From Prosthecobacter debontii (GTDB taxonomy: Bacteria; Verrucomicrobiota; Verrucomicrobiia; Verrucomicrobiales; Akkermansiaceae), in the NCBI GenBank assembly GCA_945885485.1, contig CAMCYT010000001.1, forward strand, positions 1 to 47,218: a DNA stretch of 47,218 nt, written 5' to 3'. Positions 923 to 43,321 of this stretch are shown piece after piece. Numbering within the stretch: the first letter of the stretch is position 1; every line of letters begins with the position of its first letter. The notes beneath the pieces were generated by a model. It ran no database searches. It was given only the letters and a program-made list of their open reading frames with translations, and had not been told where the DNA came from. The position numbers and the translations under genes are program-made.

Positions 923-2254
923 ATGCCAGAAACCACTTCGAATCCACCCCCATCGCACGGCACCCGCGCGGGTAATTATTTCATCTCGAACTATCCGCCG
1001 TTTTCCTTCTGGACCGATGATCAGGCAGCTGCGGTCGAGGAGGCTTACTCCGCTCCCCATGAAGGCACACCACCTGCGCTTGGCCTTTATCATCACATCC
1101 CTTTCTGCCGCAAGCGCTGCCATTTCTGCTACTTCCGCGTTTACACCGACAAGAACGCCGACGAGATCAAGCACTACCTCGACTCCACCGTCCGCGAGCT
1201 GGAAATGATGGCGCGCAAGCCGCTCATCGCAGGCCGCAAACCGCACTTCATCTACTTCGGCGGCGGCACTCCGTCCTACCTATCCGCATCACAACTCGTC
1301 GATCTAACAGACAGAATGAAAGCCCTGCTCCCATGGGACGCGGCCGAGGAAGTCGCATTCGAATGCGAACCCGGAACCCTCAATCCCGGCAAGCTCACCG
1401 CCATCAAGGACATCGGCGTCACTCGACTCTCCCTCGGGATTGAGAACTTCAATGATCGTATTCTCGAAATCAACGGCCGTGCCCACCGCACCAAAGAAGT
1501 CTGGCGCGCTTACGAACGCGCCCGCGCCGAAAATTTCGATCAAGTCAACATCGACCTCATCGCCGGCATGCTCGAAGAAACCGATGAAAACTGGCAGAAT
1601 AACATCGCCAAAACTCTCGAGCTCGCCCCCGACTCCGTCACGATCTATCAGATGGAAGTGCCTTACAACACCGGCATCTACAAGGACATGAAAGCCAGCG
1701 GAAGCCTCGTCGCTCCCATCGCAGATTGGGAAACCAAACGCCGCTGGGTCAAGGAAGCCTTCGCCGAACTCGAAGCCAATGGCTACACGATCTCCTCCGG
1801 ATACACCGCTGTGAAAAATCCCGAACGCACCAAGTTTATCTATCGCGATTCCCTCTGGGGCGGAGCCGATCTGTTAGGCCTCGGCGTCGCCTCTTTCTCT
1901 CATGCCAAAGGTGTCCATTATCAAAATCTGACGGAAATTGACGACTACGATGCCGCCATCTCTGCGGGTCGCATGCCGACCAAGCGCGCCCTCAGAACCA
2001 CCGAAGAGGAACGCATGATCCGCGAGTTCATTCTCCAAATGAAACTCGGCCGCGTGAAAGCCGATTATTTCCAACAGAAATTCGGCATCAACATCCTCGA
2101 ACGCTTTGCCGCTCCGCTCGCCCAGATCCAATCCGAAGGCCTCCTCCAAATCGAGAGCGCCGCCATCCACCTCACCCGCGACGGACTCCTCTGCGTCGAT
2201 AACCTCCTCCACGACTTCTTCCTCCCTCACCACCACACCGATAAAATCGTCTAA
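923..2254 (+). CDS. HemN-like radical SAM enzyme (possible class C methyltransferase; not clearly HemN or HemW)
   Basis: YHHIPFCRKRCHFCYF (CxxxCxxC), IYFGGGTPS, ECEPGT, RLSLGIENF, NIDLIAGM; lacks the RNFQGY (HemN) and HNxxYW (HemW) motifs. Confidence 0.85.
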   Translation: MPETTSNPPPSHGTRAGNYFISNYPPFSFWTDDQAAAVEEAYSAPHEGTPPALGLYHHIPFCRKRCHFCYFRVYTDKNADEIKHYLDSTVRELEMMARKPLIAGRKPHFIYFGGGTPSYLSASQLVDLTDRMKALLPWDAAEEVAFECEPGTLNPGKLTAIKDIGVTRLSLGIENFNDRILEINGRAHRTKEVWRAYERARAENFDQVNIDLIAGMLEETDENWQNNIAKTLELAPDSVTIYQMEVPYNTGIYKDMKASGSLVAPIADWETKRRWVKEAFAELEANGYTISSGYTAVKNPERTKFIYRDSLWGGADLLGLGVASFSHAKGVHYQNLTEIDDYDAAISAGRMPTKRALRTTEEERMIREFILQMKLGRVKADYFQQKFGINILERFAAPLAQIQSEGLLQIESAAIHLTRDGLLCVDNLLHDFFLPHHHTDKIV

Positions 2255-2286
2255 CAATTTCTCCCATTCAAAAATCCAAAAGTTAG

Positions 2287-2472
2287 AACCACGAAACACA
2301 CAAAAATTTAAGATGAAAAATGGGAATACTTTATCATCAAAGAGTAGTGGGAGAAACTCGTGCAATCCTCTCTCCTTTCGTGTGCTTCGTGATTTTCGTG
2401 GTTATAAAATTGGTTTTTCGTCGGTTAAATCATCTCCCTGTTCATCTGCGTTCATCCTGTCCATCTGTGGTT
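2287..2472. repeat. Intergenic element with tandem-repeat inverted arms (AACCACGAAA type) plus an extra right arm
   Basis: AACCACGAAACACAC at 2287 is inverted to TTTCGTGTGCTTCGTGATTTTCGTGGTT (2376-2403, 9-nt period); second arm ATCTGCGTTCATCCTGTCCATCTGTGGTT at 2444-2472; AT-rich spacer. Confidence 0.7.
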
Positions 2473-2495
2473 AAATTACTCTTTCAGAACAAATC

Positions 2496-3029
2496 ATGCA
2501 GGCTCCCAAACTTCTCACAGAACTCAACCCCATCCTCGCCACCTCCCACCTCGGGGCGGTGCCGCTGTCTTGGATACCTGCAAATGAAGTCCCGCAGCCC
2601 TATCAGAAACTTCTTGTCCACGATCACGACATGACCTCGGAACTCGCCGCCTTCCATGGCGATTCCATCTCACTCACCGTCCTGCATTCGCAGCTCAACG
2701 ATTCAATCTACCTCCGCGAAGTCACGCTCCACGCCTCCTCCTCCGGCACCACCGTCGAATACGGCGTGATCGAGATCCTCCTCGACTCTTTCCCGCCCGA
2801 ACTCCGCCCCCGCATCCTCGCCGGAGATACCCCCCTAGGCACCATCCTCACCACCTCCGGCCTCCGCTTCCATAGCGAACCCCAAGGCTTCTTCACTATA
2901 CCTAGCCAGAAACTCGAAAGCATTTTTTTACAATCTCCCTCTGGAAAAATCTTATTTGGACGCTATAATCAATTGGTTGGAGATGAATCCAAGGTCTTCG
3001 CCCGCATTCTCGAAATCCTTCCTCACTGA
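2496..3029 (+). CDS. Chorismate pyruvate-lyase-like (UbiC/UTRA-fold) protein
   Basis: LLVHDHDMTSELAAFHG, YLREVTL, ILAGDTPLGTIL, GRYNQL and terminal ILEILP resemble the UbiC/Rv2949c chorismate-lyase pattern (LL..GS.T..L / R.V.L / PLG.IL / R / E.F.P); recognised by eye. Confidence 0.6.
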   Translation: MQAPKLLTELNPILATSHLGAVPLSWIPANEVPQPYQKLLVHDHDMTSELAAFHGDSISLTVLHSQLNDSIYLREVTLHASSSGTTVEYGVIEILLDSFPPELRPRILAGDTPLGTILTTSGLRFHSEPQGFFTIPSQKLESIFLQSPSGKILFGRYNQLVGDESKVFARILEILPH

Positions 3030-4429: not shown

Positions 4430-5713
4430 ATGAACTTCGCCTTCCTCACTCCCGGCACTGGATCTTATTATTGCGGAGCCTGCATGCGTGATAACGCGCT
4501 TGCGAAGTCGCTGCTCGCCGCAGGTCATCAGGTTTCCCTGCTGCCGATGTATCTTCCGCTTCAGCTTGATGAGGAAATGCTACCGCAGGAGCAAAACCCC
4601 ATCTTCTTCGGTGGCATCAATGTGTATCTCCAGCAGAACCTCTCAGTTTTCCGGCACACCCCGCGCTGGGTTGATGATTTGCTGAACAACACCAAACTTC
4701 TCCGCTTCGCCGCCAAGCGCAGCCACATGACTTCCGCCCGCGTCCACGGCGCGATGACGCTGGCCATGCTCCGCATCGAGGGCAGTCACTTCGGCAAGGA
4801 GCTCGATAAACTCATCGACTGGCTCGCCATCGAAAAACCCGACATCCTATGCTTGGGAACCGCTCTCCAAGCCGGCATGATCCGCCAGCTCAAGCAGCGC
4901 CTCGGTGTGAAAATTATCTGTTGTTTTCAAGGCGAAGACAGCTTCCTCGACGGGCTCCCCGAGCCGTTCAAATCCTCTTGCTGGCAAGAACTGCGCGATC
5001 GCCTCCAAGACGCGGATCTGCTCGTAGCTCCCAGTCAGTTTTATGCCGACCTCATGCGGGAGCGCCTCAATGCGCCCGATCTCCGCATCGAAATCATGCC
5101 CAACGGCATCGACCTCGAAGGTTACTTATCACCGCGCCCATCCTCGCCTCCCGTCATCGGTTATCTCGCCCGCATGATACGGGAAAAAGGTCTGTTAGAT
5201 CTGGTCGAGGCTTTCATTCATCTCCGCATCGCCCTCAAACACCCCGACGCCCGTCTGCACATTGCTGGTGCTGCCACCGCGGGCGATTCCGCACTCATCG
5301 CAGAGCTCAAACAGCAACTTGAAACCGCTGGGCTAAGCGATCAGGTCACTTGGTCGCCGAACATTTCCCGCGAGGAAAAAGCCAGCATGCTCTCCTCGCT
5401 GACCCTCTTCTCCGTCCCCGCAATTTATCCGGAAGCCTTCGGCCTCTATCTGTTAGAAGCCATGGCCAGCGGCTTGCCCGTCGTGCAGCCCAATGCATCC
5501 TCGTTTACTGAAATCATCACAAATAGCGGAGCTGGCGCTCTCGTCCCGCCCGGAGATACCCGCGCTCTCGCCGCAACTTGGCTGGAACTGCTAAATAACC
5601 CGGATGCCCTCCAATCTTTCCGTGAAAAAGGTCGCCATGCTGCCGAGCAATCCTATAGCATAGGAGCCATGCGTGACCGATTTCTCCACCTCGCCACACC
5701 ACTCGTTCCATGA
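4430..5713 (+). CDS. Glycosyltransferase family 4 (GT-B) with N-terminal CxxC
   Basis: IMPNGID, GYLARMIREKG, EAFGLYLLEAMASGLPVV (ExFGxxxxE motif); N-terminal YCGACMRD. Confidence 0.85.
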   Translation: MNFAFLTPGTGSYYCGACMRDNALAKSLLAAGHQVSLLPMYLPLQLDEEMLPQEQNPIFFGGINVYLQQNLSVFRHTPRWVDDLLNNTKLLRFAAKRSHMTSARVHGAMTLAMLRIEGSHFGKELDKLIDWLAIEKPDILCLGTALQAGMIRQLKQRLGVKIICCFQGEDSFLDGLPEPFKSSCWQELRDRLQDADLLVAPSQFYADLMRERLNAPDLRIEIMPNGIDLEGYLSPRPSSPPVIGYLARMIREKGLLDLVEAFIHLRIALKHPDARLHIAGAATAGDSALIAELKQQLETAGLSDQVTWSPNISREEKASMLSSLTLFSVPAIYPEAFGLYLLEAMASGLPVVQPNASSFTEIITNSGAGALVPPGDTRALAATWLELLNNPDALQSFREKGRHAAEQSYSIGAMRDRFLHLATPLVP

Positions 5714-6142: not shown

Positions 6143-6679
6143 ATGAAATCCATGAACTGGTTCTCTCTCGCACTTGTCACCGTCGCCTGTTGGGGACTTT
6201 ACGGAATTTTTCTCCACGCCGGCCAAGTCGGCATGAAGGATCCACTACTCGGCCGTTACAAGGCGTTCCTGTTTGTTGGCATCGCCTATTTCCTCACCGC
6301 CGTCCTTGCTCCGCTGGTTATTCTGTTAGCCTCGAAAAACATGAATTGGAACATGCCGCAAAAAGGCATGTGGATTTCACTTTTCGCAGGGATCCTTGGA
6401 GCCATCGGTGCGTTCTTCGTTCTGCTTGCGATGGGATCGGGCGCGAAGGCAGGGATGAATCCCGCCATCGTCGCGGTCTCGGTCATGTCGATTATCTTTG
6501 CCGGAGCGCCCATCGTGAATGCGATCGTCAGCATCGCGATGCATCCGCCCAAAGGAGGATTCTCCGCCATCCCAATCCCGTTCATCCTGGGAATTTTGCT
6601 CGCCGCACTCGGTGGCTTCATGGTCACCAAATACAAACCGTCTTCAGCACCGCCGCCGAAAATCGCTGAGAAGCCCTAA
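6143..6679 (+). CDS. Integral membrane protein (about 5 TM, DMT/EamA-like)
   Basis: Five hydrophobic segments, N-terminal ACWGLYG, codon usage like neighbours. Confidence 0.65.
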   Translation: MKSMNWFSLALVTVACWGLYGIFLHAGQVGMKDPLLGRYKAFLFVGIAYFLTAVLAPLVILLASKNMNWNMPQKGMWISLFAGILGAIGAFFVLLAMGSGAKAGMNPAIVAVSVMSIIFAGAPIVNAIVSIAMHPPKGGFSAIPIPFILGILLAALGGFMVTKYKPSSAPPPKIAEKP

Positions 6680-6707: not shown

Positions 6708-7916
6708 ATGTCTTCTTCGCTCCAGAAACTCAATGACCTGATCCACGCCATCCTGCCGGCGAACCGTTTCTACGCCGAAAAACTTGGAGCGCCCGGAAAA
6801 TTCACCAGCCTCTCCGATTTCACCGAGCGTGTCCCTTTCACCACCAAGGACGAACTCGCCGCGAATCGTGAACAGCACCCGCCCTACGGCACAACCCACA
6901 CCTTCCCGCTTTCTAACTATCACCGCTTTCATCAAACCAGCGGCACCCGCGGCAAACCCCTCATCTGGCTTGACGATCCCGACAACTGGACATGGATCCT
7001 CGACAACTGGGAATGGGTCTGGCGCGGCGCAGGCGTAAAGCCCGGCGACACCGCTTTTTTTCCGTTCTCGTTCGGTCCGTTTCTCGGCTTCTGGGCGGGC
7101 TTCGAAGCGGCCACCCGCATGGGCATCCGCGCCGTTCCCGGTGGCGGGCTTTCTTCGGAAGACCGCCTTCAACTGCTGCTGCAAAGCCACTCGACCATCC
7201 TCTGCTGCACACCCACCTACGCCCTGCGTCTCGCCGAGGTAGGCGAAAAAATGAAGCTCCCGGTCTCTTCACTGGGCATCAAGAAAATCATCGTCTGCGG
7301 TGAACCCGGCGGCAGCATCCTCGAAGTCCGCCAACGCATTGAAACCGCATGGCAGGCTCACGCTTACGATCACCATGGCATGACCGAGATCGGCCCAGTC
7401 TCTGTTAGTTCGGAGACCGATCGTGATCTTCTCTTACTACGGCATGACTCCTATTTCTGCGAAGTCATCGACCCCACCAACGGCACTCCTACTGCATTGG
7501 GAGAAACCGGCGAACTCGTCCTCACCACCCTTGGCCGCTACGGCTCGCCTCTGCTTCGCTACCGCACAGGCGACCTCGTCATGCCCGTCGCACACGAAGA
7601 ACAATTCGCCCTCCGTGGTGGCGTTCTCAGTCGCACCGACGACATGATCGTGATCCGTGGCATCAACATCTATCCGAGTTCTATCGATGCCATCGTTCGC
7701 TCATTTCCTGACATCGCCGAGTATCAGGTGGAAATCGACCAACGCCCAGCTCTTGCCGAGATCCATCTAACAGTCGAGTCCTCCACAGAAACCGCGAGCG
7801 CGCTCTCCCAAAAACTCCGCTCCGTCTTCACCCTCCGCATCCCCGTCACCGCCGTGCCCACCGGCACTCTCCCCACCTTCGAGGTCAAAGCCAAACGCTG
7901 GAATATTCTCCAATAA
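6708..7916 (+). CDS. Phenylacetate-CoA ligase (PaaK)-family aryl-CoA ligase
   Basis: PFTTKDEL, QTSGTRGKP, CTPTYAL, CGEPG, DHHGMTE, LLRYRTGD, SRTDDMIVIRGINIYP; likely start ATG 6708 (ORF-track start overlaps the previous gene). Confidence 0.88.
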   Translation: MSSSLQKLNDLIHAILPANRFYAEKLGAPGKFTSLSDFTERVPFTTKDELAANREQHPPYGTTHTFPLSNYHRFHQTSGTRGKPLIWLDDPDNWTWILDNWEWVWRGAGVKPGDTAFFPFSFGPFLGFWAGFEAATRMGIRAVPGGGLSSEDRLQLLLQSHSTILCCTPTYALRLAEVGEKMKLPVSSLGIKKIIVCGEPGGSILEVRQRIETAWQAHAYDHHGMTEIGPVSVSSETDRDLLLLRHDSYFCEVIDPTNGTPTALGETGELVLTTLGRYGSPLLRYRTGDLVMPVAHEEQFALRGGVLSRTDDMIVIRGINIYPSSIDAIVRSFPDIAEYQVEIDQRPALAEIHLTVESSTETASALSQKLRSVFTLRIPVTAVPTGTLPTFEVKAKRWNILQ

Positions 7917-9516: not shown

Positions 9517-12500
9517 ATGACCTCCTCAGCTTTCATCCTCCGCGGCCTCCGGCATTACCGCAGCGCTTACCTCGGCGTTCTGTTAGGTTCCGCCCTCGGC
9601 GCGATGGTTCTGTTAGGCGCGCTATTCGCCGGGGATTCCGTGAAATCCACGCTTCGCCAGATCGCTGAACAACGCACCGGCCGCACCACCCTCGTCCTAG
9701 CCGGTGGCGAAAATTTCTTCCGTGCCCGTCTTGCGAACGACCTTCCCGGCACCGCTCCGGTTCTCCAACTCCGCAGCCAAGTCGATACCCCGTCCGGCCG
9801 CTCGACCGGCCAAGTCAACCTGTTCGGCGTCACTCCGGAGTTTTGGAAATTCGCTCCCGGAAATATAAACCCGCCCGCCCTCGATAAAAGCTCTTGGGCG
9901 ATCAACCGCGAACTCGCCCGCACCCTCGATCTCTCGCTCGGCGATACGCTTGTCATCCGTCTTGGAAAACCCGGCCTCGCTTCTCGCGACGCCCCGCTTT
10001 CCGGCGAACCCGAGGAACTCATCACCATCCGCGGCACCGTTGCCGAAATCCGCGAGGACGACGCCATGGGTCGCTTCAATCTCCAAGCCACGCAACTCCC
10101 CGCACCGGCCATTTTTCTCCCCATCGAAGCTCTCGCCGCCGCAATCGAGCGACCTGACAGCGCGAACCTCCTGCTGTTTCAGGAAAATCTAACCACGGAT
10201 GAAGCCACCGCTCGCATCCGCAAATCCGCCCAACTCGCCGATTACGGACTGTCCCTGTTAGATGTCCCGCTTTCTAGCGCCACCGAGATCCGCACCGACC
10301 GCATTTTCCTCCCCACTCTCATCGAGGAAAAACTCCGCACTCTCCTTCCTTCATCCCGCCCCGTCCTCACCTACCTCGCTAACACCATCGCCGCTAACGG
10401 CAAGGAGACACCCTACTCGATGGTCACCGGCATCGACCCCGCCGCCGTATCTTTTGTCCCCGACGATCTCGCGCCCGACCAGATCGTCCTCAATTCCTGG
10501 GAAGCCGAAGACCTCGCCGCCAAGCCCGGCGACACCGTCACACTCCGCTATTTCACACTCGGCAACGGCAATCAACTCATCGAGAAATCCTCCACGTTCC
10601 GCGTCCATAGCATCGTCCCGCTCGAAGGAGCTGCTGCCGACAAACTCTGGATGCCGGATTTCCCGGGCATCGCCGAAGCTGACAATTCCGCCGACTGGAC
10701 TTCCGGCCTCCCACTCGATCTCAGCCGTATTCGCGATAAGGACGAAACCTATTGGGATGACCATCGCGGCACGCCCAAAGCCTTCATTACCCACGATGCC
10801 GCTCGCGCCATGTGGAGCAACCGTTGGGGCAACGCCACCTCGCTCAGAATCAGCAGCGAGCAAATTTCTATCCCCGAGTTAGAAACTAAAATCCTCAACA
10901 CCCTCACTCCCGCCGACGCTGGCTTGCTGATCCGCGACATCGCCACCGAAAGCGCAAGCGCCGCATCTTCTCCCGTCGATATCGCCAGCCTGTTCCTGAG
11001 CATGTCGTTTTTCCTCATCCTCGCCGCCGTCGCTCTAACAGCCATGTTGTTCCGCTTCAATGTCGAGCAACGCAACCACGAGTCCGGCCTGCTCGCCGCA
11101 CTTGGCATTCCCGCGAAAAAAATTCTCCGCTGGCGTCTGCTCGAAGGCTTGGTCGTCGTCACGATCGGAAGCGCGCTCGGCGCACTGCTCGCCTTCGCCT
11201 ACACCCGTGGCTTGCTGCTATTTCTCGAATCCATTTGGAACCGAGGTGATGATCGCATGTTCCGCTTCCACGCCGCCCCGGCATCCATCGGCGGCGGCAT
11301 CATCGGCTTCATCTTCCTGATGATGATCACGATCTGGTTCGTCACCCGCCGCCAAGCGAAACGCTCCGCCAGCCTGCGCCTCGAATCCGGTAGCGAGGAA
11401 ATCCTACGCAGCGGGAAATCACGCGCTCGCTGGATCGCCCCCGCAGCGGCCATCATGGGTGTTGCCGCACTGTTGGGATCGAAAATGATCGGTACTCAAG
11501 GCGCATTTTTCCTCGCTGGATTTTCCTTCCTCATCGCCGGCCTCGCGCTCTTCCGCGTGGCTGGAACATCTCGCTCCAGTTCTTCTCTAACCATCGCCCA
11601 CCTCGCCCGACTCAACATCTCCCGCCGCCCGACCCGTTCGTTAGTCGTTGTCGGTAGTCTCGCCGCCGGACTTTTCCTCGTCGTCTCCGTCACCGCTTTC
11701 CAAAAACACGGAGGCGGCGATTGGCAGAAACGCTCCGCTCCCTCCGGAGGTTTCGCGTTCTGGATCGAAACCACCACTCCCGTCCACCGCAGTTCCGCCT
11801 CAGACTCCACCGCCGACATCCTCAACCTCGGCGACCAACGCGGAAAACTCGGTGACATCCTCCCTTTCCGCATCGGCACCGGCGACGACGCCTCTTGCTT
11901 CAACCTCAACTCCGTCTCTCGTCCTCGCCTTCTCGCCACCGATACCAGCGCCCTCGAACAACGTGGTTCCTTCACCATCAAATCCACCGCCCCCGGCATC
12001 GAACCAACTTGGAAATCCCTTCGCGAAGGCGATACCATCCGCGCCTTCATCGATGAAACCACCCTCATGTGGGTTCTGAAAAAAAAGCCCGGCGACCGCA
12101 TCGACTACACCGATGAACAGGGCAATACCTTCCCACTTGAAATCGCTGGAACTCTAACAGCTTCTGTTTTCCAAGGTAGCTTCATCGTCGATGAACAACG
12201 CTACCTCGAACGCTACCCCTCCACCGGAGGCTATCAGCTTTTCCTCGCCGAAACTACCAACGATCTAACAGAAAACCGAAACATTCTCCAACGCGCCCTC
12301 ACCGACCTAGGAGCCACCGTCACCACCACCACCGAGCGCCTCGCCGCATTCAACAGTGTGGAAAACACCTACATCTCAATCTTCAACGTCCTCGGCGGCC
12401 TCGGCGTGATCCTCGGAGCCGCCGGCCTCGGCATCGTCACCGCCCGCAATCTAGCAGAACGCCAACACGAGTTCACACAACTCCATCAGATCGGCATTTC

Positions 12501-14031: not shown

Positions 14032-15477
14032 ATGTCCGCTCTCAAGCTCACTCGCACCCAATGGCTGATTTGCGTCATCGCCGCCTTGGGTTTCGCCTTC
14101 GATATTTATGAACTGCTGATGCTGCCGCTGATCGTCGGGCCTGCCTTACAGGAACTCATCGGCGCGGCGCCGGGGTCGCCGGAGTTCAACAGTTGGATAG
14201 GGAAATTGTTTTTCATCCCGGCCATCGCGGGCGGCATCTTCGGGTTGCTGGGCGGGTATCTAACAGATCGCTTGGGGCGTCGCCGGGTGTTGACGTGGAG
14301 TATTTTGCTTTATGCTTTTTCAGCCTTCGCGGCCGGATACTCGACGAGTGTGGAGATGCTGTTGTTCTTCCGCTGCCTGGTTTTCATCGGCGTATGCGTC
14401 GAGTTTGTCGCGGCGGTGGCATGGCTTGCCGAGCTTTTTCCCGATCCGAAACAGCGAGAGAAAGTGCTCGGCTACACGCAGGCGTTTTCATCCATCGGTG
14501 GTCTGATGGTGGCAGTGGCATACGGCATTTGCGTAAAATATTCCGGCAGCTTTCCTGCGATTCATCTGCCCGATTTCCTCAGTGGCCTGTTTGGGGGAGG
14601 AACGGTGGGGGACGAGAATGCCGCTTGGCGCTATACTCTTATGTCCGGTGTGATTCCCGCCATCCCGCTGATCATCATCCGCCCCTTCCTGCCCGAGTCA
14701 CCCGCATGGGCGCAGAAAAAGGCCGCAGGCACTCTCAAGCGTCCCAGTATTCGCGAGCTTTTCACCCCAGAACTCCGCCGCACCACGCTAGTCACTACAG
14801 CGATGTTTGCCATGGCCTACGGTGCCGCGTTCGGAGCCATCCAGCACATCCCACGCATCATTCCGGGTCTGCCGGAAGTGAAGGTCGCCTCGCAGGCCGC
14901 CTCGGCCGCCGCCGCCAAGGCGAATGCCGGGAAACCTGCGGGTGTCATCAAAAAAGCCGCTATCGTCGCCGGGAAAAAAGCGGAGCAATCCATCGCGGCG
15001 AACACCACGAAGATCCAGGAAGTCGGCGGCTTGGTAGGTCGCTTCTTGCTGGCGTATCTGGCCGTCATCATCATCAGCCGCCGCAAGCTGCTTCGTTTGT
15101 TTGTTATTCCCGGCCTGATCGTCATGCCTTTGGTCTTCGCCTACTGCGGCGTAACCGGACTGCTGCCCTTGCAAATCGGCATCTTCTTCGCGGGCTTGCT
15201 CACCGTCGGGCAGTTCAGCTTTTGGGGAAATTACCTCCCACGGGTCTATCCCATGCATCTCCGTGGCACGGGCGAAAGCTTCGCCGCCAACATCGGCGGC
15301 CGACTGATCGGCACCTCATTTGCTTGGATCACCACCACTCTCGCCACCACCACAGATTTGGCAGCAGCACCGGCCAAGCTAGCCTACACAGCGGCGGCGG
15401 TGGGTTGCGGCGTGTATCTTGTCAGCCTGATTCTTTCCTTCTTCCTGCCCGAACCCAAAGAAGAGCTACTGGACTGA
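14032..15477 (+). CDS. MFS transporter
   Basis: GFAFDIYE, motif A GGYLTDRLGRRRVL, PESP; about 12 TM. Confidence 0.9.
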   Translation: MSALKLTRTQWLICVIAALGFAFDIYELLMLPLIVGPALQELIGAAPGSPEFNSWIGKLFFIPAIAGGIFGLLGGYLTDRLGRRRVLTWSILLYAFSAFAAGYSTSVEMLLFFRCLVFIGVCVEFVAAVAWLAELFPDPKQREKVLGYTQAFSSIGGLMVAVAYGICVKYSGSFPAIHLPDFLSGLFGGGTVGDENAAWRYTLMSGVIPAIPLIIIRPFLPESPAWAQKKAAGTLKRPSIRELFTPELRRTTLVTTAMFAMAYGAAFGAIQHIPRIIPGLPEVKVASQAASAAAAKANAGKPAGVIKKAAIVAGKKAEQSIAANTTKIQEVGGLVGRFLLAYLAVIIISRRKLLRLFVIPGLIVMPLVFAYCGVTGLLPLQIGIFFAGLLTVGQFSFWGNYLPRVYPMHLRGTGESFAANIGGRLIGTSFAWITTTLATTTDLAAAPAKLAYTAAAVGCGVYLVSLILSFFLPEPKEELLD

Positions 15478-25210: not shown

Positions 25211-25235
25211 CACTTAATCTTGTTAAATCGTCTGA

Positions 25236-28172: not shown

Positions 28173-28271
28173 ATGAAAGGCTTATTTGGATGACACTCCC
28201 TCGGAAACTGGAGAGGTTGAAAAGTTGATCCAGCTGGCACAGAATAAATATGCTAGGCATACTATCGCAAG

Positions 28272-28577: not shown

Positions 28578-28608
28578 TCTATTTATTACTCTCATTCTAA
28601 ACCTTCTG

Positions 28609-28670
28609 GCATCCCTGCCGGGATGCGAATATTTTTGAAACGTATCAACCCGAGGTCTCCGACCATCGGG
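28609..28670. repeat. REP-like double hairpin between convergent genes
   Basis: GCATCCC-TGCC-GGGATGC (28609-28626) and CCCGA-GGTC-TCC-GACC-A-TCGGG (28649-28670). Confidence 0.55.
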
Positions 28671-28707
28671 CTAATATCTGCGATCTCGCTGAGGTGAGAA
28701 GAGAACA

Positions 28708-29392: not shown

Positions 29393-31363
29393 TTAGGCGT
29401 AACTGCGGACTGAGAGTTTCACCGTTTCGTATTTTAGCTCCTCTTTGTGGAGCGTAGGAGCCTGGCCGGGGCCGTGGTATTCCCATGCGGAAACGTATGC
29501 GAACTCGCTGTCATGACGTTTGGCTTCGCCCGGTTGGGTTTTACCTTCTAACACTTCCGGATCTTTCTCGGTGAACTGATGCTCGCCACGGAAATGTCCG
29601 CCACAGGATTCCTCGCGTTGGAGAGCGTCGTGGCACATCAGCTCGCCGAACTCCAAGAAGTCTGCGACGCGGCCGGCTTTTTCGAGCTCCATGTTTGCGC
29701 CCTCGCCGGTGCCGGGGATAAGAACGTTGTTCCAGAACTCCTCGCGGATTCTTGAGATTTCCTGAAGTGCCCATTTGAGACCTTCTGCGGTGCGTTCCAT
29801 GCCGCACTTGTCCCACATGACTTTTCCGAGATCGCGATGAAAGGAATCGACTGTGCGTTTGCCTTTGATGGAAAGTAATTTAGCAATGCGCTCGCGGACT
29901 TCGCCCTCAACCTGCGCGAAGGCCGGATGAGCGGTGGTGATCGTGCCGGGTTTCTGCGTTGCGAGATAGTTGGCAATCGTGGTTGGGATCACAAAATAAC
30001 CATCGGCAAGACCTTGCATTAGCGCGGATGCACCGAGGCGGTTCGCACCGTGGTCGGAGAAGTTCGCTTCGCCCAACACGTGCAGGCCGGGGATGTTAGA
30101 CATCAAGTTGTAGTCCACCCAAAGTCCACCCATCGTGTAATGGACGGCGGGATAAATCATCATCGGGCGCTCGTAAGGATTCTCGCCGGCAATTTTTTCA
30201 TACATCTGGAAAAGGTTGCCGTAGTTGGCGCGGATTTTGTCCTCTCCGAGGCGCTTGATCGCATCGCGGAAATCGAGATATACGCCGAGACCGGTGGGAG
30301 CGACACCACGGCCGTCATCACAGGCTTCTTTGGCTGCACGGGATGAAATGTCGCGCGGTGCGAGGTTTCCGAACGATGGATACTTCCTCTCCAAGAAATA
30401 ATCGCGATCTTCCTCGGAGATATCGTTGGGATGCATTTCCTTGGAGCGGAGTTTGGCGGCTATTTCTCGGGATTTAGGAGCCCAGATGCGCCCGTCGTTG
30501 CGGAGCGATTCCGACATCAGGGTGAGCTTGGATTGGTAGTCACCAGAAACGGGAATGCAGGTCGGGTGAATCTGCGTATAGCACGGATTCGCCATGAGTG
30601 CGCCACGTCTGGCGGCGCGCCATGCGGCCATCACGTTGCAACCCATCGCGTTGGTGGAGAGGAAAAACACGTTGCCGTAACCACCGGTTGCGAGAATCAC
30701 TGCATCCGCGGCGTGGGTGGAAATTTCTCCGGTGTTCAGATCACGGACGACGATGCCTTTCGCGTGGCCATCGACTTGCACGAGATCTAACATCTCGGTG
30801 CGCGGATACATTTTCACGCCGCCTTTGCTGATTTCTTTTTCGAGTGCTTGGTAGCAACCAATCAAGAGTTGTTGTCCGGTTTGACCACGGGCGTAAAACG
30901 TGCGGGAAACCTGCGCGCCGCCGAAGGAGCGGTTGTCGAGCAAGCCGCCGTATTCACGAGCGAATGGCACACCTTGGGCAACGCATTGGTCGATGATGCT
31001 GTTAGAGACTTCGGCAAGGCGATAGACGTTTGCCTCGCGAGAGCGGAAGTCGCCGCCTTTGATCGTATCGTAAAAGAGGCGGTAAACTGAGTCGCCATCA
31101 TTGCGGTAGTTTTTCGCGGCGTTGATACCACCTTGAGCAGCGATCGAGTGCGCGCGGCGCGGGGAGTCTTGGTAGCAGAAGCATTTCACGTTGTAACCAA
31201 GCTCGGAAAGCGTTGCGGCTGCAGCACCGCCGGCGAGTCCGGAACCGACCACGATGATGTTGAATTTCCTTTTGTTTGCCGGATTGATCAGCTTCGAGTC
31301 CATTTTGTGTTTGGACCATTTCTGCTCAAGTGGGCCAGCCGGGATTTTGCTATCGAGTGACAT
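29393..31363 (-). CDS. sdhA: Succinate dehydrogenase/fumarate reductase flavoprotein subunit
   Basis: [52 protein letters not shown]. Confidence 0.95.
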
Positions 31364-32300: not shown

Positions 32301-34013
32301 ATGCTCCGCCTTATCCGTCATACCCTGCGCTTCCCTCTGATGAGTGGGTTTTCTCTGCTTTTGGCCATTGCCTGCACCTCGCTGGTGCTGGTGCTGCCGG
32401 GTGTCACGATGCGTTTCATCGATACGATCATTGGCCAAAACCGTCCGGATCTTATTTTATCCACTGCGCTCATCGGCGCCGGAGCCATTCTTGCACGCCA
32501 GGCGCTTTTCACTCTCCGGACCTATCTTAACAACGCCCTTGAACTGAAGCTGACCCACCTGATTCGTGTTGAACTCTATGACAAGCTCCAGCGCCTACCG
32601 GTCAAGTGGTTCGATAAAAACTCCTCCGGTGAGATTATGTCGCGCGTGGCGGACGACGTTCCGACGATGGATAGGGTCATTATCGAGGGGTTGGACCAAG
32701 CGCTCGCAGCAGTGCTCCAGTTCCTTATCGTGATCGGCTATCTGCTCTATCACTCGTGGGAACTGACTTTGGTTACGCTGATACCGCTACCATTCATCGG
32801 ATTTCTTACTGCGTGGTGGTCGAAAAAGGCAGAGCCGAAATGGCGCGCCTCTTCCGAGGCCTCTTCCGCACTCAACGCTATCCTCCACGACAATCTTGCC
32901 GGCATTCGCCAGATTAAGGCATACACGGTCGAGCCGCAGGCACTTTCCGACTTCGGTGAGGCTTCTCTCAAGGTCGGGGACAAGCACATGGATGTCATGA
33001 AAGGCCAAGCCATTGTCTGGCCCACCGTGTCCTTTATCGCGGAGGCGGGCATCATTCTCATGGTCGCGTTTGGCGCATGGTGGACGCTTAACGGTCAGCT
33101 ATCTCCCGGTGTGGTCATTGCGTTTCTTGTCGCATGGGGTTTTCTCTTCGACCCCATCTCCCGCATCAACCCGCTTTCACAGACATTTACTAGAGGCCTA
33201 GTATCTGCAAAACGTGTATTTGCCATCATAGATACCCCGGACGAAACGCATCTAACCGAAGGAAATCGCCCGGAAAACTTCTCCGGTAAAATCGAGTTCC
33301 GTGATGTCTCTTTTTCATACAACGACGACGCGCCCGCCCTGCAACACATTTCCTTAACCGCACTTCCCGGCCAGACACTGGCACTTGTCGGTTCGACTGG
33401 ATCCGGAAAATCTACCGTGCTCAATCTCCTTTCCCGTTTCTACGAGCCGATCTCTGGTAAAATTCTGTTAGACGGTGAGCCAATCTCGGAAATCTCTAAG
33501 GAATGGCTACGCGACAACACTGGCTTCGTCACTCAAGAGACATTTCTTTTCAACACCACCATCCGTGAGAATCTCACTCTTGCGAAGCACCAGGCCAGCG
33601 ACGAAGAGTTGTGGTCCGTGCTTGAAGCCGCCAATGCCGCAGACTTTATTCGCGCCCTTCCAGAAGGTCTTGATGCGAAAGCCGGTGAGCGCGGCATCCG
33701 CTTCTCTGGTGGCGAAAAGCAGCGCCTCTCCATCGCGCGCGCCCTCTTGAAAAACCCCCCGCTTCTTTTGTTAGATGAAGCCACTTCCGCCCTCGACAAC
33801 CATACCGAGAAACTCGTCCAACAAGCCCTTGACCGTCTCCGCTCCAACCGTACCTCCTTTGTCATCGCCCACCGTCTCAGCACCATCCGCAATGCCGATC
33901 TTATCTGCGTTCTCCATAAAGGCGAACTCGTCGAAAGCGGCAGACATGAAAAATTGTTAGAAAATAACGGACACTATGCACATCTCCAGCGCGGGAAAGA
34001 TGCCACTATCTGA
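32301..34013 (+). CDS. ABC exporter, fused permease/ATPase (MsbA-like)
   Basis: TM domain + GSTGSGKS, FSGGEKQR, LLLDEATS, IAHRLST. Confidence 0.92.
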   Translation: MLRLIRHTLRFPLMSGFSLLLAIACTSLVLVLPGVTMRFIDTIIGQNRPDLILSTALIGAGAILARQALFTLRTYLNNALELKLTHLIRVELYDKLQRLPVKWFDKNSSGEIMSRVADDVPTMDRVIIEGLDQALAAVLQFLIVIGYLLYHSWELTLVTLIPLPFIGFLTAWWSKKAEPKWRASSEASSALNAILHDNLAGIRQIKAYTVEPQALSDFGEASLKVGDKHMDVMKGQAIVWPTVSFIAEAGIILMVAFGAWWTLNGQLSPGVVIAFLVAWGFLFDPISRINPLSQTFTRGLVSAKRVFAIIDTPDETHLTEGNRPENFSGKIEFRDVSFSYNDDAPALQHISLTALPGQTLALVGSTGSGKSTVLNLLSRFYEPISGKILLDGEPISEISKEWLRDNTGFVTQETFLFNTTIRENLTLAKHQASDEELWSVLEAANAADFIRALPEGLDAKAGERGIRFSGGEKQRLSIARALLKNPPLLLLDEATSALDNHTEKLVQQALDRLRSNRTSFVIAHRLSTIRNADLICVLHKGELVESGRHEKLLENNGHYAHLQRGKDATI

Positions 34014-35777: not shown

Positions 35778-38700
35778 CAAGCGTGGTATTCTTGGATGCT
35801 CTTCACGGTGAGATCGGATTCCTTGAGTGAACGTATGGCTTTTACTGAGGCTTCGGCGGCGGCCATGTTAGTGGCGTAGGAAATTTTCTGAGCGATCGCG
35901 GTGGAGCGGATCAGAATTTCATCGGCGCGGGACTCGTGAGTGGCGGGTGTGTTGATGAGGAAATGGATCTCGCCGTTCTTCATCATGTCGATGACGTTCG
36001 GGCGAGCTTGCTCGAGAACTTTGTAAACCCGGTCGGCGGGGATTCCAGCTTCGGCGAGTTTCGCGAGAGTCCCGCCGGTGGATACGATTTTGAAACCGAG
36101 TTCATGCAGGCCGCGGGCGACGACGATGGCGCGTTCTTTATCGCGATCTGCGACGGAGAAGAAAACGGTGCCTTCTTTCGGGAGTGGGTTGAAGGCGGCG
36201 ATCTGGGATTTGGCGTAGGCCATGCCCCAATCTTTATCGATGCCCATCACCTCACCAGTGGATTTCATCTCCGGGCCGAGCACGATGTCGATGCCTGGGA
36301 AGCGGTTCCATGGGAACACGGCTTCTTTCACGGAGATATGGCTGGGGATGATAGTTTTCGTATAACCCATATCGACAAGTTTTTCTCCGACCATGATTTT
36401 GGCGGCGAGCTTGGCTAGGGAGACACCGGTGGCTTTCGAGACAAAAGGTACAGTCCGAGAAGCGCGAGGATTGACCTCGATGACGTAGAGTTCTTCGTCT
36501 TTCACAGCGAACTGGATGTTCATTAAGCCACGAACTTCGAGTTCGCGAGCGAGGTCTTTAGCGGCTTTTTCGATTTGAGCTTTGATGTTGTCCGAGATTG
36601 AGAAGGCGGGAATGACGCAAGCGGAGTCGCCAGAATGAATACCGGCTTGCTCGATGTGCTGCATGATCGCGCCGACGACGGAGGTTTCACCATCGCTGAT
36701 GCAATCGACATCAATTTCGGTGGCGTTATCGAGGAAACGATCGACAAGCACAGGGCGCTCAGGAGAGGCGGTGACCGCCTCGCGCATGTAGGTGGAGAGT
36801 TCGGAGTCCCGGTAGACGATCATCATCGCGCGGCCGCCAAGAACGAAGGATGGTCTAACAAGAACTGGGTAGCCGATGCGGTTGGCGACGACTATGGCTT
36901 CTGCCTCGTTGGTGGCGGTTCCGGCTTCGGCTTGTTTGAGATGAAGTTTATCTAACAGCGCGGAGAAAAACTTGCGGTCTTCGGCCTGCTCGATGGATTT
37001 AGGTGAGGTGCCGATGATGGGAACGCCGTGGCGTTCGAGATCCGCAGCGAGGTTGAGTGGAGTTTGACCGCCGAACTGGACGATCACGCCGTAGGGTTTT
37101 TCTTGATCGCAGATATTGAGAACGTCTTCAAGTGTAAGGGGCTCGAAGAAAAGTTTGTCTGAAGTGTCGTAGTCGGTGGAGACTGTCTCAGGGTTGGAGT
37201 TCACCATGATCGTCTCGTAGCCGAGCTCTTTGAGCGCGAAGGCGGCGTGGACGCAGCAGTAATCGAACTCGATACCCTGGCCAATTCTGTTAGGTCCGCC
37301 ACCGAGGATGATGATTTTCTTTTTGTTGGACTGGCGCGCTTCGTTTTCATCGCCGTAGGTGGAGTAGAAATACGGAGTGTAAGCTTCGAACTCCGCGGCG
37401 CAGGTATCGACGAGGCGATAGGTTGGGATGACGCCGTGTTTTTTGCGGAGTGCGCGGACTTCGTCTTCGGTGGAATTCCATGCTTTGGCAAGCTGGCGGT
37501 CGGAAAATCCGAGTTTTTTGAGACGGCGCAATTCGCCCGAAGATGCGGGCGGGGCGCCCGCGCTCCCATTGAGTGAGCTCCCTTCTTCAGCGATCTGTTG
37601 GAGATGGCGTAGGAACCATGGATCGATCGCAGTAGCGGCGTGGACATCGTCGAGCGTCCAGCCATTCACGAAAGCGGTTTGCAGCCAGAAAATGCGTTCG
37701 GCGTTGGGAATTTGGAGTTTGCGGGTGATCTCGTCTTTGGTCGGCGCTTTCGGGTCTTTGTTGTCGAAGCCGAAGCCCCATCGTCCCGTTTCGAGGGAGC
37801 GCAAGCATTTCTGCATGGACTCTTTGAACGTGCGGCCGATGGACATCGCTTCGCCGACCGACTTCATCGAAGTGGTAAGTACGGGATTTGCTGTAGGAAA
37901 CTTTTCGAAGGTGAAACGCGGGATCTTGGTGACCACGTAGTCGATGGTTGGCTCGAAGGATGCGGGGGTGACGCGGGTGATGTCATTGGGGAGTTCGTCA
38001 AGCGTGTAGCCGACGGCGAGTTTCGCAGCAATTTTTGCAATCGGGAATCCGGTTGCTTTGGAGGCTAGAGCGGATGAGCGGGAAACGCGTGGGTTCATCT
38101 CGATGACGATCATGCGGCCGGTTTTAGGATCGGTGGCGAACTGGATATTAGAACCACCGGTTTCGACGCCGATCTCGCGGATCACGGCGAACGATGCGTC
38201 GCGCATGATTTGGTATTCGCGATCTGTTAGGGTTTGGATCGGCGCGACGGTGATGGAATCTCCGGTGTGCACGCCCATGGGGTCGAGGTTTTCGATGGAA
38301 CAGATGACCACGCAGTTGTCGGCGCGGTCGCGCATGACTTCCATTTCGAATTCTTTCCAACCGAGTAAAGATTCATCGATGAGAACTTCTGAAACCGGCG
38401 AGAGATCGAGGCCGCGGTGGACGATTTCCTCGAATTCTTCTTTGTTGTAAGCGATGCCGCCGCCTTGGCCGCCTAGGGTGAAGGCGGGGCGGACGATGAG
38501 TGGGAGAGTGCCGATATCGTCTGCGACTTTTTTCGCTTCTTCCATCGTGCGGGCGATTCCGGAGCGAGGCATATCGAGGCCGATTTTTTCCATCGCTTCT
38601 TTGAAAAGGTGGCGGTCTTCGCCTTTGTCGATCGCTTCGGCATTTGCGCCTATCATACGGACGCCGTGTTTATCGAGGACGCCGGATTTGAAAAGTGACA

Positions 38701-42090: not shown

Positions 42091-42193
42091 AAGTTGTTTA
42101 AGATGCTATGTTTCCCTTACGGGTTTGCACATCATGGTTTTTCGCCCATTTTCACCTTTCCCATCCTTCCTTTCAGGCGTAGATATAAGCATC

Positions 42194-42511
42194 ATGAAAT
42201 TCATCTATCTCCTTCTGCCTGCTTTGTTCCTTGTTTCTTGTAAGACTGAGAAAAGCGAGAAAGCTCCAAGCGCAACTCCGATTGATGTGACAGAGACAAA
42301 GCCCGCCGCATCTGAGTTTGATGTGAAAGATGCGACTTCGCTGGTCGGCAAAAAACTGGAAGCTGTGCAGCCAGCGCTGGAGGCGGCGGAGATTCGTTTT
42401 CGGGTGATTGAAAAGGATGGTGAACCGCTTATTATGACGATGGATTACATCGAGGACCGTTTGAATTTCAAAATCAAAGCCGGGGTGATTGCCGAAGTTT
42501 CCAAAGGATGA
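42194..42511 (+). CDS. Lipoprotein with peptidase-inhibitor I78/I13-like C-terminus
   Basis: LVSC lipobox; MTMDYIEDRLNF...VSKG matches the T.DY...R reactive-loop pattern. Confidence 0.65.
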   Translation: MKFIYLLLPALFLVSCKTEKSEKAPSATPIDVTETKPAASEFDVKDATSLVGKKLEAVQPALEAAEIRFRVIEKDGEPLIMTMDYIEDRLNFKIKAGVIAEVSKG

Positions 42512-42523
42512 AATGCTATGCGC

Positions 42524-43321
42524 TTAGGCGCTTCGGAGTTTTGGAATCGATGCGAGTAAGCGCTTTGTGTATGCATCTTTCGGTGAGTGAAACACTTCGC
42601 CTGCGGGGCCGACCTCGACGATTTTCCCCTGATACATCACGGCAATGCGATCCGCGATGTAATGCACCACGCCGAGGTCGTGCGAGATGAACACCATGGT
42701 CAGGCCGAGATTGCGCTGCAGATCTTTGAGGAGGTTGAGGATTTGGGATTGGATGGAAACATCGAGGGCGGAAACTGGTTCGTCGGCGATGATGAGTTTC
42801 GGCTCCGGGGCGAGCGCTCTGGCAATGGCGATCCGTTGGCGTTGGCCGCCGGAAAATTCATGCGGGTAACGTTTCATCTGACTGGCGTCCAAACCGACGG
42901 TTGCCATGAGTTCGGAAACTTTTTTTTCTAACTCCGTGCCTTTCATTTTCAGATGACGTTGGCGAACGGCCTCGGCGATGGTGGAGAAAACCGTCATGCG
43001 CGGATTGAGTGAAGCGTAGGGATCTTGGAAGACCATCTGGAAATCGAGGCGACGGCGGCGGACTTCGGAATGACTGAGGAGCGAAAGGTTTTCGCCATCT
43101 AACACAATCGACCCAGCGGTTGGGCGTATGAGCTGCATCAGCGTCCGGGAGAGCGTCGATTTTCCGCAGCCCGATTCCCCAACTAAGCCAAGGATCTCAC
43201 CTTTCTGAATTTCCAAAGAAACGCCATCGACTGCTTTGATGGTTTCTTTTTTAGAAGAGAGCATGCCTCCGCTGGCTTTCACGAAATGCTTTTCAAGATT
43301 TCTGATTTCCAAATACGCCAT
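42524..43321 (-). CDS. Oligopeptide ABC transporter ATPase (OppF/DppF-like)
   Basis: GESGCGKS, FQDPYASLNPRM, RYPHEFSGGQRQR, DEPVSALD; start ATG 43321. Confidence 0.92.
   Translation of the reverse strand: MAYLEIRNLEKHFVKASGGMLSSKKETIKAVDGVSLEIQKGEILGLVGESGCGKSTLSRTLMQLIRPTAGSIVLDGENLSLLSHSEVRRRRLDFQMVFQDPYASLNPRMTVFSTIAEAVRQRHLKMKGTELEKKVSELMATVGLDASQMKRYPHEFSGGQRQRIAIARALAPEPKLIIADEPVSALDVSIQSQILNLLKDLQRNLGLTMVFISHDLGVVHYIADRIAVMYQGKIVEVGPAGEVFHSPKDAYTKRLLASIPKLRSA

What the first reader, a model, noticed from the sequence alone, without database searches (positions are those of the whole stretch)
1304..43104. Over-represented CTAACAG/CTGTTAG motif written into coding sequence on both strands
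By eye, CTAACAG starts at 1304, 7767, 11035, 12154, 12265, 14260, 16894, 21585, 22727, 23318, 23975, 36952 and CTGTTAG at 1871, 5192, 5450, 6323, 7402, 9580, 9610, 10255, 17808, 30999, 33465, 37287, 38224: at least 25 copies, against roughly 5 expected if the window is about 55% GC (my estimate). About a dozen further TCTAACA/TGTTAGA variants occur. Most copies force otherwise rare CTA/TTA Leu codons (CTG TTA G, CTA ACA G) in genes that strongly prefer CTC. The 12:13 orientation split argues against polarised Chi/KOPS. I saw none in the autotransporter island. Inference: a lineage-specific DNA uptake sequence, HIP1-like methylation-linked motif or chromosome-organising protein site; I know of none described for Verrucomicrobia.
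Basis: partly seen in the sequence, partly recalled or inferred. Interest (0 to 1): 0.75.

Follow-up and report, generated by a model that had tools for sequence, protein, structure and literature searches.

The report
Genome-wide TCTAACAG sites, AP2-like binder
Many free-living Akkermansiaceae bacteria keep hundreds to over a thousand copies of the short sequence TCTAACAG or its near-matches inside their genes but away from promoters, and these are likely docking sites for a small AP2-fold DNA-binding protein that would help organise the chromosome.

Summary
All 25 coordinates are right, and the motif is real: 25 copies in the window against 1.6 after synonymous shuffling. Genome-wide, TCTAACA is the top 7-mer (8.4x). 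The consensus is (T)CTAACA(G). Sites lie on both strands without replichore polarity. They are conserved at synonymous positions (200/230 vs 141 expected), depleted in close pairs, and not enriched within about 200 bp of promoters.

Enrichment of the exact 8-mer was seen only in the window's family, and patchily. Some lineages have a hollow consensus: the perfect site sits at chance level while weaker variants are enriched 4-30x. In motif-poor relatives about half of the perfect sites are intergenic, like operators.

An 86-aa basic protein with a predicted AP2-like fold occurs in 80/80 family genomes tested. Its own upstream region carries the motif in 41/71 homologues, against 34/1049 control genes. 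HU-gene promoters carry it too.

Best reading: a sequence-specific nucleoid-type protein whose dispersed, strength-tuned sites are under selection. Binding is untested, and the protein is also present in motif-poor genomes. DNA uptake sequence, HIP1 and Chi fit less well. Ten literature searches found no description.

The parts
1304..1310 (+). CTAACAG site (perfect TCTAACAG from 1303), in radical SAM HemN-like gene, codons CTA ACA
1871..1877 (-). site (CTGTTAG on +), CTG TTA
5192..5198 (-). perfect site in glycosyltransferase gene
5450..5456 (-). perfect site in glycosyltransferase gene
6323..6329 (-). site
7402..7408 (-). site (TCT GTT AGT frame)
7767..7773 (+). perfect site
9580..9586 (-). 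site; by eye the matching context in locus L010 reads CTAGCAG
9610..9616 (-). site; by eye the matching context in L010/L014 reads CTAGCAG
10255..10261 (-). perfect site
11035..11041 (+). perfect site
12154..12160 (+). perfect site
12265..12271 (+). perfect site
14260..14266 (+). perfect site in MFS transporter gene
16894..16900 (+). site
17808..17814 (-). perfect site
21585..21591 (+). perfect site in comF-like gene (DZR_2 + PRTase)
22727..22733 (+). site
23318..23324 (+). perfect site in serS
23975..23981 (+). perfect site in serS
30999..31005 (-). perfect site in sdhA-like gene
33465..33471 (-). perfect site in ABC transporter gene
36952..36958 (+). perfect site in carB
37287..37293 (-). 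site in carB
38224..38230 (-). site in carB
1303..43104 (.). all 43 CTAACA cores of the window (20 +, 23 -). The candidate binder gene lies outside the window at G000:C123:4231-4491(-) = L240:1732-1992; the hup promoter cluster lies at G000:C4:20819-21296
25236..28172 (-). autotransporter gene without any CTAACA (3.5 expected in 24911-28707)

Best explanation
TCTAACAG and its tolerated variants are a selectively maintained chromosomal DNA signal inside genes, and they are likely the binding site of a small, basic, probably abundant protein with a predicted AP2-like fold (G000:C123:4231-4491) that likely represses its own promoter and likely acts as a sequence-specific nucleoid protein. Shown: enrichment, synonymous conservation, orientation neutrality, depletion of close pairs, exclusion from promoter-proximal DNA, lineage-specific shifts of the preferred site strength, and a conserved footprint upstream of the AP2-like gene and of hup. 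Inferred: the AP2-like protein is the binder; binding near a promoter blocks RNA polymerase, which would explain both autorepression and the exclusion zone; single moderate sites every 0.4-1 kb in gene bodies are favoured because they dock the protein evenly along the chromosome (compaction, or titration that ties free protein and HU synthesis to DNA content); strong or paired sites are costly in transcribed DNA, so lineages with more protein (extra gene copies) shift to weaker sites. In motif-poor relatives the same protein would act as an ordinary regulator.
For: Conservation against G555: 200/230 synonymous codons in sites identical vs 140.6 expected (p=6e-18). First 200 bp of genes behind divergent promoters: CTAACA 18 observed / 19.5 expected, against 73 / 13.5 at starts of operon-internal genes (p=3e-14); the same direction in G555, G110 and G317. 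Divergent intergenic TCTAACA 2 / 3.3, convergent 14 / 1.9. Close pairs depleted: G317 11 vs 41.7 below 50 bp; G110 21 vs 38.9. Hollow band in G317 coding DNA: perfect site 2 / 1.7, CCTAACAA 35 / 2.2, GCTAACAG 33 / 2.5. Genome-wide perfect vs VCTAACAG: G272 28 vs 1079, G211 1568 vs 486. AP2-like gene: codon-bias rank 32 of about 2085, pI 10; 80/80 panel genomes; strong orthologues in only 2 of 80 genomes outside the family. Model pLDDT 80.7 with beta3-alpha fold; best structural match Plasmodium SIP2 AP2, Z 7.7, rmsd 2.3 over 67 residues. Upstream site in 41/71 homologues vs 34/1049 control genes; 48/71 within 120 bp vs shuffle mean 5, max 11, in 9 of 10 genera. In G000 the two sites follow a -35/-10-like pair (read by eye). 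hup upstream: three sites in G000; 14/29 close homologues vs 4.5 shuffled, and two or more sites in 7/29 vs 0.5. Extra strong gene copies in 10/16 hollow, 3/27 solid and 0/31 motif-poor genomes. Perfect sites are intergenic in 16/30 sampled from motif-poor genomes vs 2/30 from hollow ones.
Against: No binding was measured. The protein is present and nearly identical in motif-poor genomes, and 13/24 of their homologues keep the upstream site, so it does not by itself explain who has genome-wide enrichment. Neither its residues nor its codon bias separate motif-rich from motif-poor genomes (0.71 vs 0.69, p=0.41). The fold match is below Z 8, Foldseek E was 0.93, and Pfam AP2 hit only 1 of 10 homologues scanned, under cut-off. 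The G195 copy is frameshifted in the assembly although G195 is motif-rich. Upstream footprints and copy numbers come from related genomes and are not independent. A footprint shows that the gene is a target, not that its product is the binder. Close-pair depletion was weak in G000 and G555 when all 26 variants were used (z -2.0 and -1.6). Genes were called with my own hexamer-model caller.
Confidence: 0.6

Rival explanations
1. Another, unidentified cytoplasmic protein binds the motif, and the AP2-like gene and hup are merely among its regulated targets. A second factor may also decide which lineages fill their genes with sites.
For: The AP2-like protein is present in motif-poor genomes. The assembly is 82% complete. 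Other basic, highly codon-biased candidates exist: an HTH protein with a Lys-rich linker, H1-like proteins and a Whirly-like protein.
Against: The HTH-K-rich gene has no conserved upstream site (4/20 vs 3.0 shuffled), while the AP2-like gene has 51/71 vs 9.5 in the same 250-bp window. Among 1049 G000 genes it is the only one with two distinct sites in its upstream 90 bp. Its strong orthologues are nearly confined to the motif's family.
Confidence: 0.17
2. It is a DNA uptake sequence: a pilin receptor favours import of motif-bearing DNA, and recombination drives the motif up, as for neisserial DUS and pasteurellacean USS.
For: Density about 1 per 2 kb, both strands, a strict core with graded flanks, conservation and even spacing. 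G000 encodes ComEC, ComF, DprA, ComM, PilB/C/T-like ATPases and platform, secretins and pilins. Genes with atypical codon usage and low GC3 carry fewer perfect sites.
Against: No inverted pairs, whereas these are frequent in all DUS dialects (PMC3630211, passages). Non-coding DNA is less enriched (3.5x) than coding DNA (8.4x). A promoter-proximal exclusion zone and absence of the best site in hollow genomes are not expected from uptake drive. ComEC 80/80 and the FimT-like pilin 77/80 do not discriminate. Short ComEA-like hits occur in 19/38 motif-rich vs 9/28 motif-poor genomes, p=0.21; none was found in closed motif-rich G110.
Confidence: 0.12
3. It is a HIP1-like, methyltransferase-linked motif, maintained by methylation-directed repair or recombination.
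For: Like HIP1, it is conserved in coding DNA beyond codon effects, with conserved one-mismatch variants (PMC5861425, abstract and passages). G000 has two DNA methyltransferase genes.
Against: It is non-palindromic with graded flanks, and in several genomes the exact site is at chance level while variants at positions 1, 3, 5 and 7 are enriched. One methyltransferase sits in an Eco57I-type restriction island and the other is a contig-edge fragment. No deamination precursor is depleted.
Confidence: 0.06
4. It is a Chi- or KOPS-like oriented signal for AddAB or FtsK.
For: AddA- and AddB-like genes are present. TGTTAGA is 56-59% on the G-rich strand, and G015 shows long stretches of one orientation (hand count).
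Against: 7-mers of the same composition are more skewed (61-66%) than the motif. Closed genomes G110 and G195 show mixed orientation throughout.
Confidence: 0.02
5. It is a codon-pair or peptide artefact.
For: 22 of 25 window sites fall in Leu-Thr or Leu-Leu codon pairs.
Against: It is enriched in every usable frame on both strands and in non-coding DNA, survives amino-acid-pair-preserving shuffles, and the dipeptides LT and LL are at 1.06 and 1.00 of expectation.
Confidence: 0.01

Closest known systems
Cyanobacterial HIP1 (GCGATCGC)
   Same: Hyper-abundant, mostly intragenic, conserved at synonymous positions with conserved one-mismatch variants, proposed to act in chromosome structure (PMC5861425: abstract and passages seen).
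   Different: HIP1 is palindromic and methylase-linked; that paper found no link to promoters and reports that no binding protein was found by EMSA. This motif is asymmetric, avoids promoter-proximal DNA, can be hollow, and has a candidate binder with an upstream footprint.
DUS (Neisseriaceae, ComP) and USS (Pasteurellaceae, predicted ComN/PpdA)
   Same: Family-restricted, thousands of copies, both strands, strict core with graded flanks (PMC3630211 passages; bioRxiv 10.1101/2025.10.24.684340 passages; PMC12616744 listing only).
   Different: No inverted pairs; non-coding DNA less enriched; several variants coexist in one genome instead of one conserved dialect; the candidate binder has no signal peptide or pilin leader.
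Sequence-specific nucleoid proteins with many sites: Pseudomonas aeruginosa ParB at parS-related motifs, Mycobacterium tuberculosis EspR
   Same: A regulator-type protein that also occupies many chromosomal sites (PMC5961200 and PMC3315491: search listing and start of abstract only).
   Different: Different fold. Here the sites are visibly selected into coding sequence at 4-30x excess and their strength shifts between lineages.
AP2/ApiAP2 domains (Plasmodium SIP2 on SPE2 sites; plant AP2/ERF)
   Same: Predicted three-stranded sheet plus helix; best structural match 6sy0, SIP2 AP2 bound to DNA.
   Different: A stand-alone 86-aa bacterial protein with an extra hairpin and helix, below the Pfam AP2 cut-off. 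From recall, bacterial AP2 domains are usually fused to HNH nucleases or integrases.
Chi and KOPS
   Same: Over-represented asymmetric octamers in coding DNA (recalled).
   Different: No polarity beyond compositional skew.

Membership tests
DNA uptake sequence (DUS/USS) | Most over-represented short word, hundreds to thousands of copies on both strands | tested here: met
DNA uptake sequence (DUS/USS) | Frequent inverted pairs in terminators; accumulation in permissive intergenic DNA | tested here: not met
   At most 5 and 4 opposite-orientation TCTAACA pairs within 80 bp, at no fixed spacing; non-coding 3.5x vs coding 8.4x. Convergent intergenic regions are enriched, 14 vs 1.9.
DNA uptake sequence (DUS/USS) | One conserved best-matching dialect dominates each genome | tested here: not met
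   Perfect site at chance level in G317, G014, G272 and G046 while variants at several positions are enriched
DNA uptake sequence (DUS/USS) | Competence machinery present, with a pilin receptor co-varying with the motif | tested here: inconclusive
   Machinery present; ComEC, one FimT-like pilin and ComEA-like hits do not track the motif; other pilins were not tested across genomes
DNA uptake sequence (DUS/USS) | Motif raises DNA uptake | not testable with these tools
   needs a transformation assay
HIP1-like | Palindromic octamer | tested here: not met
   TCTAACAG is asymmetric
HIP1-like | Conserved in coding DNA beyond codon and peptide effects | tested here: met
HIP1-like | Methylated by a cognate methyltransferase | not testable with these tools
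   no methylome available; two methyltransferase genes seen in G000
HIP1-like | 10-90 kb periodic spacing | not tested
   G000 contigs are 47 kb or shorter; full site lists of closed genomes were not obtainable
Chi/KOPS | Orientation polarised by replichore | tested here: not met
Macrodomain sites (matS, SBS, NBS, parS) | Palindromic and confined to, or excluded from, one chromosome region | tested here: not met
   Sites occur around the whole chromosome in G110, G195 and G015; a 2:1 excess opposite dnaA was seen in G110 only
AP2/ERF domain (candidate binder) | Three-stranded antiparallel sheet packed on one helix | tested here: met
   predicted model; the top four structural matches are a SIP2 AP2 domain and three Toxoplasma mitoribosome chains (AP2-type by recall), Z 6.0-7.7
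AP2/ERF domain (candidate binder) | Pfam PF00847 above cut-off | tested here: not met
   no hit for the G000 protein; 1 of 9 homologues at E 0.0085, 16.8 bits against cut-off 33.3; an Atlas neighbour cluster has PF00847 in 10% of members
AP2/ERF domain (candidate binder) | Sequence-specific DNA binding | not testable with these tools
   only the indirect upstream footprint
Nucleoid-associated protein | Small, basic, abundant | tested here: inconclusive
   86 aa, pI 10, codon-bias rank 32; RNA contigs were uninformative
Nucleoid-associated protein | Genome-wide occupancy and effect on DNA compaction | not testable with these tools
   needs ChIP-seq and imaging

The most novel reading that the evidence does not exclude
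A bacterial family has repeatedly turned an AP2-fold transcription factor into a chromatin-like protein by writing its binding site into synonymous codons about once per kilobase. Each lineage tunes site strength to protein dosage: perfect sites where the gene is single, deliberately imperfect sites where it is duplicated. The dispersed sites titrate the protein so that its own synthesis and that of HU track DNA content.
Probability: 0.33. Interest if true: 0.92.

Novelty: new variant of a known kind. Interest (0 to 1): 0.8.

Why it matters
Hyper-abundant chromosomal motifs such as HIP1 have long lacked an identified binding protein. Here the motif comes with a small, easily purified candidate binder and three natural states (solid, hollow, operator-like) among close relatives, so the function of such motifs becomes directly testable. 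A hollow consensus would be a visible case of stabilising selection on binding affinity across a whole genome. The motif also shapes codon usage in abundant freshwater Verrucomicrobia and may matter for gene design and DNA delivery in Luteolibacter-type bacteria.

Tried and rejected
Bipartite or type I-like second half-site: no information beyond about 5 bases from the core.
Deamination product: no precursor is depleted.
Separate dialects (TCTATCAG, CTAGCAG): rejected once mismatch tables showed several one-mismatch shells in the same genome.
Silencing of cryptic promoters: -10-like hexamers are not denser near sites (slightly lower), and gene-level rho is -0.07.
Second factors that do not track the motif: ComEC, FimT-like pilin, HTH-K-rich protein 74/80, ComEA-like hits.
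The first expression test failed because its reference set was empty. The repeat shows a lower density in the top 5% of genes (31 vs about 52 per 100 kb), but still about 11x the bin's own shuffle.
The homodimer prediction gave no answer (score 0.07).
RNA runs were contigs of relatives; three of four did not cover the gene.
No homologue was found in viral contigs with this query. PDB sequence search: no match.
Three look-ups of earlier scan findings returned nothing.
The terminus bias in G110 did not repeat in G195 (21 vs 19, hand count) and was not evident in 20 evenly spaced G110 samples.
Full report
Observation. The 12 CTAACAG and 13 CTGTTAG positions are exactly as listed. All 25 lie in genes and 22 use CTA or TTA. 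Within-gene synonymous shuffling gives 1.6 on average (max 7 of 1000). The window is contig C1 of a 2.52 Mb, 281-contig, 82%-complete assembly. The closest named records are Akkermansiaceae/Luteolibacter MAGs, and the DNA runs that hold it are lake, freshwater and sediment metagenomes. Genes were called with my own hexamer-model script (2085 genes).

The motif genome-wide. CTAACA is the top 6-mer and TCTAACA the top 7-mer (1157 copies, 7.8x order-3 Markov). In coding DNA TCTAACA is 8.35x over synonymous shuffles, in every usable frame on both strands, and about 5x when amino-acid pairs are kept. Non-coding DNA is enriched 3.5x. The core CTAAC tolerates almost no change. T before it and A after it matter strongly, and one further base each side weakly; nothing lies beyond.

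Selection, orientation and spacing. Against relative G555 (182 genes, 180 kb aligned), synonymous codons inside sites are identical in 200 of 230 cases against 140.6 expected from the same codons elsewhere. The motif is less strand-skewed than 7-mers of the same composition (56-59% vs 61-66%) and is mixed in closed genomes, so it is not Chi or KOPS. Neighbouring sites within 200 bp are rarer than random, and there are no inverted pairs. With all 26 variants the depletion is clear in G317 and G110 and weak in G000 and G555.

Promoter exclusion. In 385 genes that follow a divergent intergenic region, CTAACA is at 0.8 and 1.1 of expectation in the first and second 100 bp, 3.1 at 200-400 bp and 4-5 beyond. 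In 276 operon-internal genes it is 5.5 from the first base. Divergent intergenic DNA has 2 TCTAACA against 3.3 expected, convergent 14 against 1.9. G555, G110 and, less sharply, G317 repeat this. Mis-called starts could blur the boundary but not the contrast.

Distribution. In 300 family genomes the perfect 8-mer is patchy: 19 of 54 genomes of the own genus reach twice the reversed-word control, several other genera have rich members, and none of 55 g14 genomes (probably Akkermansia, my inference) exceeds about 1.1. None of 229 genomes sampled outside the family reaches twice the control (read from the table). That search would miss hollow forms.

Three states. Solid genomes (G000, G555, G211) favour the perfect site. 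Hollow genomes have it at chance level while weaker variants are abundant: in 394 kb of G317 coding DNA the perfect site is 2 against 1.7 expected, TCTAACCG 29/2.3, GCTAACAG 33/2.5 and CCTAACAA 35/2.2. Genome-wide perfect vs VCTAACAG is 28 vs 1079 in G272, 37 vs 784 in G317 and 13 vs 364 in G046, against 405 vs 255 in G000. The enriched variants are those partly tolerated in G000; the easy synonymous escapes at core positions 4 and 6 are not enriched, so these are not decay relics. Motif-poor genomes (G163, G084, G123, G056, G083; 100 kb each) show 0.7-1.2x in coding DNA. There 16 of 30 sampled perfect sites are intergenic, against 2 of 30 in hollow genomes (first ten listed per genome, crude ORF calls). 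On a tree of the candidate protein (70 rows, G195 left out as frameshifted, few columns) the motif-poor state needs 13 changes, at least 6 forced by well-supported branches.

The candidate binder. A protein covering thousands of sites should be abundant, so I listed basic, soluble proteins with high codon bias. Rank 32 is an unannotated 86-aa protein, G000:C123:4231-4491, divergent from rpoA and single-copy in G000. Its model (pLDDT 80.7 for the best of five; the others 54-63) has a three-stranded sheet and helix. The best of 48,161 chains is the Plasmodium SIP2 AP2 domain bound to DNA (Z 7.7, rmsd 2.3, 67 residues), followed by three Toxoplasma mitoribosome chains. The score is middling and Pfam AP2 is not reached. 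The protein is in 80 of 80 panel genomes, most divergent in g14. Outside the family, strong hits occur in 2 of 80 genomes and weak ones in 20; some of those carry Lys/Ala-rich tails.

The footprint. I defined 26 variants from coding enrichment in G000 and G317 only, and examined 71 homologous loci (G000, the 30 best hits and 40 chosen for genus spread). 41 have a site within 90 bp upstream, against 34 of 1049 G000 control genes, among which this gene alone has two distinct sites. Within 120 bp the count is 48 against a shuffle mean of 5 (max 11 of 500), in 9 of 10 genera, at different offsets and orientations, and in 13 of 24 motif-poor homologues. In G000 the sites follow a TTGGAT-17-TAAAAT pair, a repressor position by established promoter anatomy. 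The hup promoter of G000 holds three sites, two of them perfect, in a divergent region. 14 of 29 close HU homologues from metagenomes have sites, each with at least one 140-215 bp upstream (shuffles 4.5; three loci with short upstream or partial matches dropped; distant HU 4 of 30). A rival candidate, an HTH protein with a Lys-rich linker, shows no such footprint (4 of 20 vs 3.0). Extra strong copies of the AP2-like gene occur in 10 of 16 hollow, 3 of 27 solid and 0 of 31 motif-poor genomes (my classification; p=0.001 ignoring kinship).

Mechanism. Shown: selection on a graded DNA site, exclusion near promoters, an upper limit on site strength that differs by lineage, and a conserved footprint at two nucleoid-type genes. 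Inferred: the AP2-like protein binds the site and represses itself (about 0.7). Dispersed moderate sites are favoured for nucleoid organisation or titration, and strong or paired sites interfere with transcription (about 0.5). Unexplained: why near-identical proteins coexist with motif-rich and motif-poor genomes. A second factor or a difference in protein level is needed. Silencing of cryptic promoters was tested and not supported.

Comparison with known systems. It works like HIP1 in being intragenic and selected, and like ParB/EspR-type regulators in doubling as a nucleoid protein. It fails membership of DUS (no inverted pairs, no single dialect), HIP1 (not palindromic), Chi/KOPS (no polarity) and macrodomain sites (genome-wide). 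G000 does encode competence genes, so uptake is not excluded. Papers: PMC5861425 abstract, outline and passages; PMC3630211 passages; bioRxiv 10.1101/2025.10.24.684340 passages; all others were search listings only; no supplements were read, and k-mer tables in supplements could list this word. Ten full-text searches listed no paper on this motif or protein. Only the top 3-30 rows of each were seen, and the library lacks most subscription journals.

Verdict. A real, selected, family-restricted chromosomal motif with an unusual strength-tuned distribution and a well-supported but untested binder. Interest 0.8; new variant of a known kind.

Noticed in passing
G000:C120:4949-5143 and panel: The long HHH_3-bearing protein (about 800 aa, Tex-like by recall) is found in 35/38 motif-rich vs 17/28 motif-poor genomes (p=0.005); much of the absence is whole genera, so it may reflect kinship only.
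   Followed up: partly
G110:C1 (closed): 54 of 81 listed sites of two sub-patterns lie in the half opposite dnaA (p=0.004); not seen in G195 or in evenly spaced G110 samples.
   Followed up: partly
G123:C1:2.10-2.46 Mb and 3.31-3.34 Mb: 14 of 19 perfect sites of this motif-poor genome cluster in two regions; possibly DNA acquired from motif-rich relatives.
   Followed up: no
L241:1148-1450 (G000:C59); L359:1783-2241; L390: Family-wide HTH (Brinker-like) + Lys-rich linker + coiled-coil protein, 74/80 genomes, as a tandem two-domain form in one clade. The G000 copy lacks an evident ATG and lies next to a transposase-like gene. Possible second nucleoid protein.
   Followed up: partly
window 13446, 13881, 15556, 15687; 43390-43550; 46820-46980: Intergenic inverted repeats and AATCGTCAAT-type REP-like repeats, also in relatives; two genes with a Y1-transposase-like motif in G000.
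   Followed up: no
G000 genome: Strong avoidance of GTAC (0.24), CCWGG, GGCC, CTCGAG, CCGCGG and CGATCG, suggesting past restriction systems; an Eco57I-type island lies at C23:13267-19045.
   Followed up: no
L339, L346, L347: Distant AP2-like proteins in other Verrucomicrobia families carry histone-H1-like Lys/Ala-rich tails.
   Followed up: no
G000:C11:295-756 (L245): Whirly-family protein (Pfam E 1e-9) with high codon bias.
   Followed up: no
window 9152-9475 and G000:C111:5059-5409: A ParE-like gene sits between ABC transporter genes in the window, and a MazF-like gene sits between pilB and pilC.
   Followed up: no
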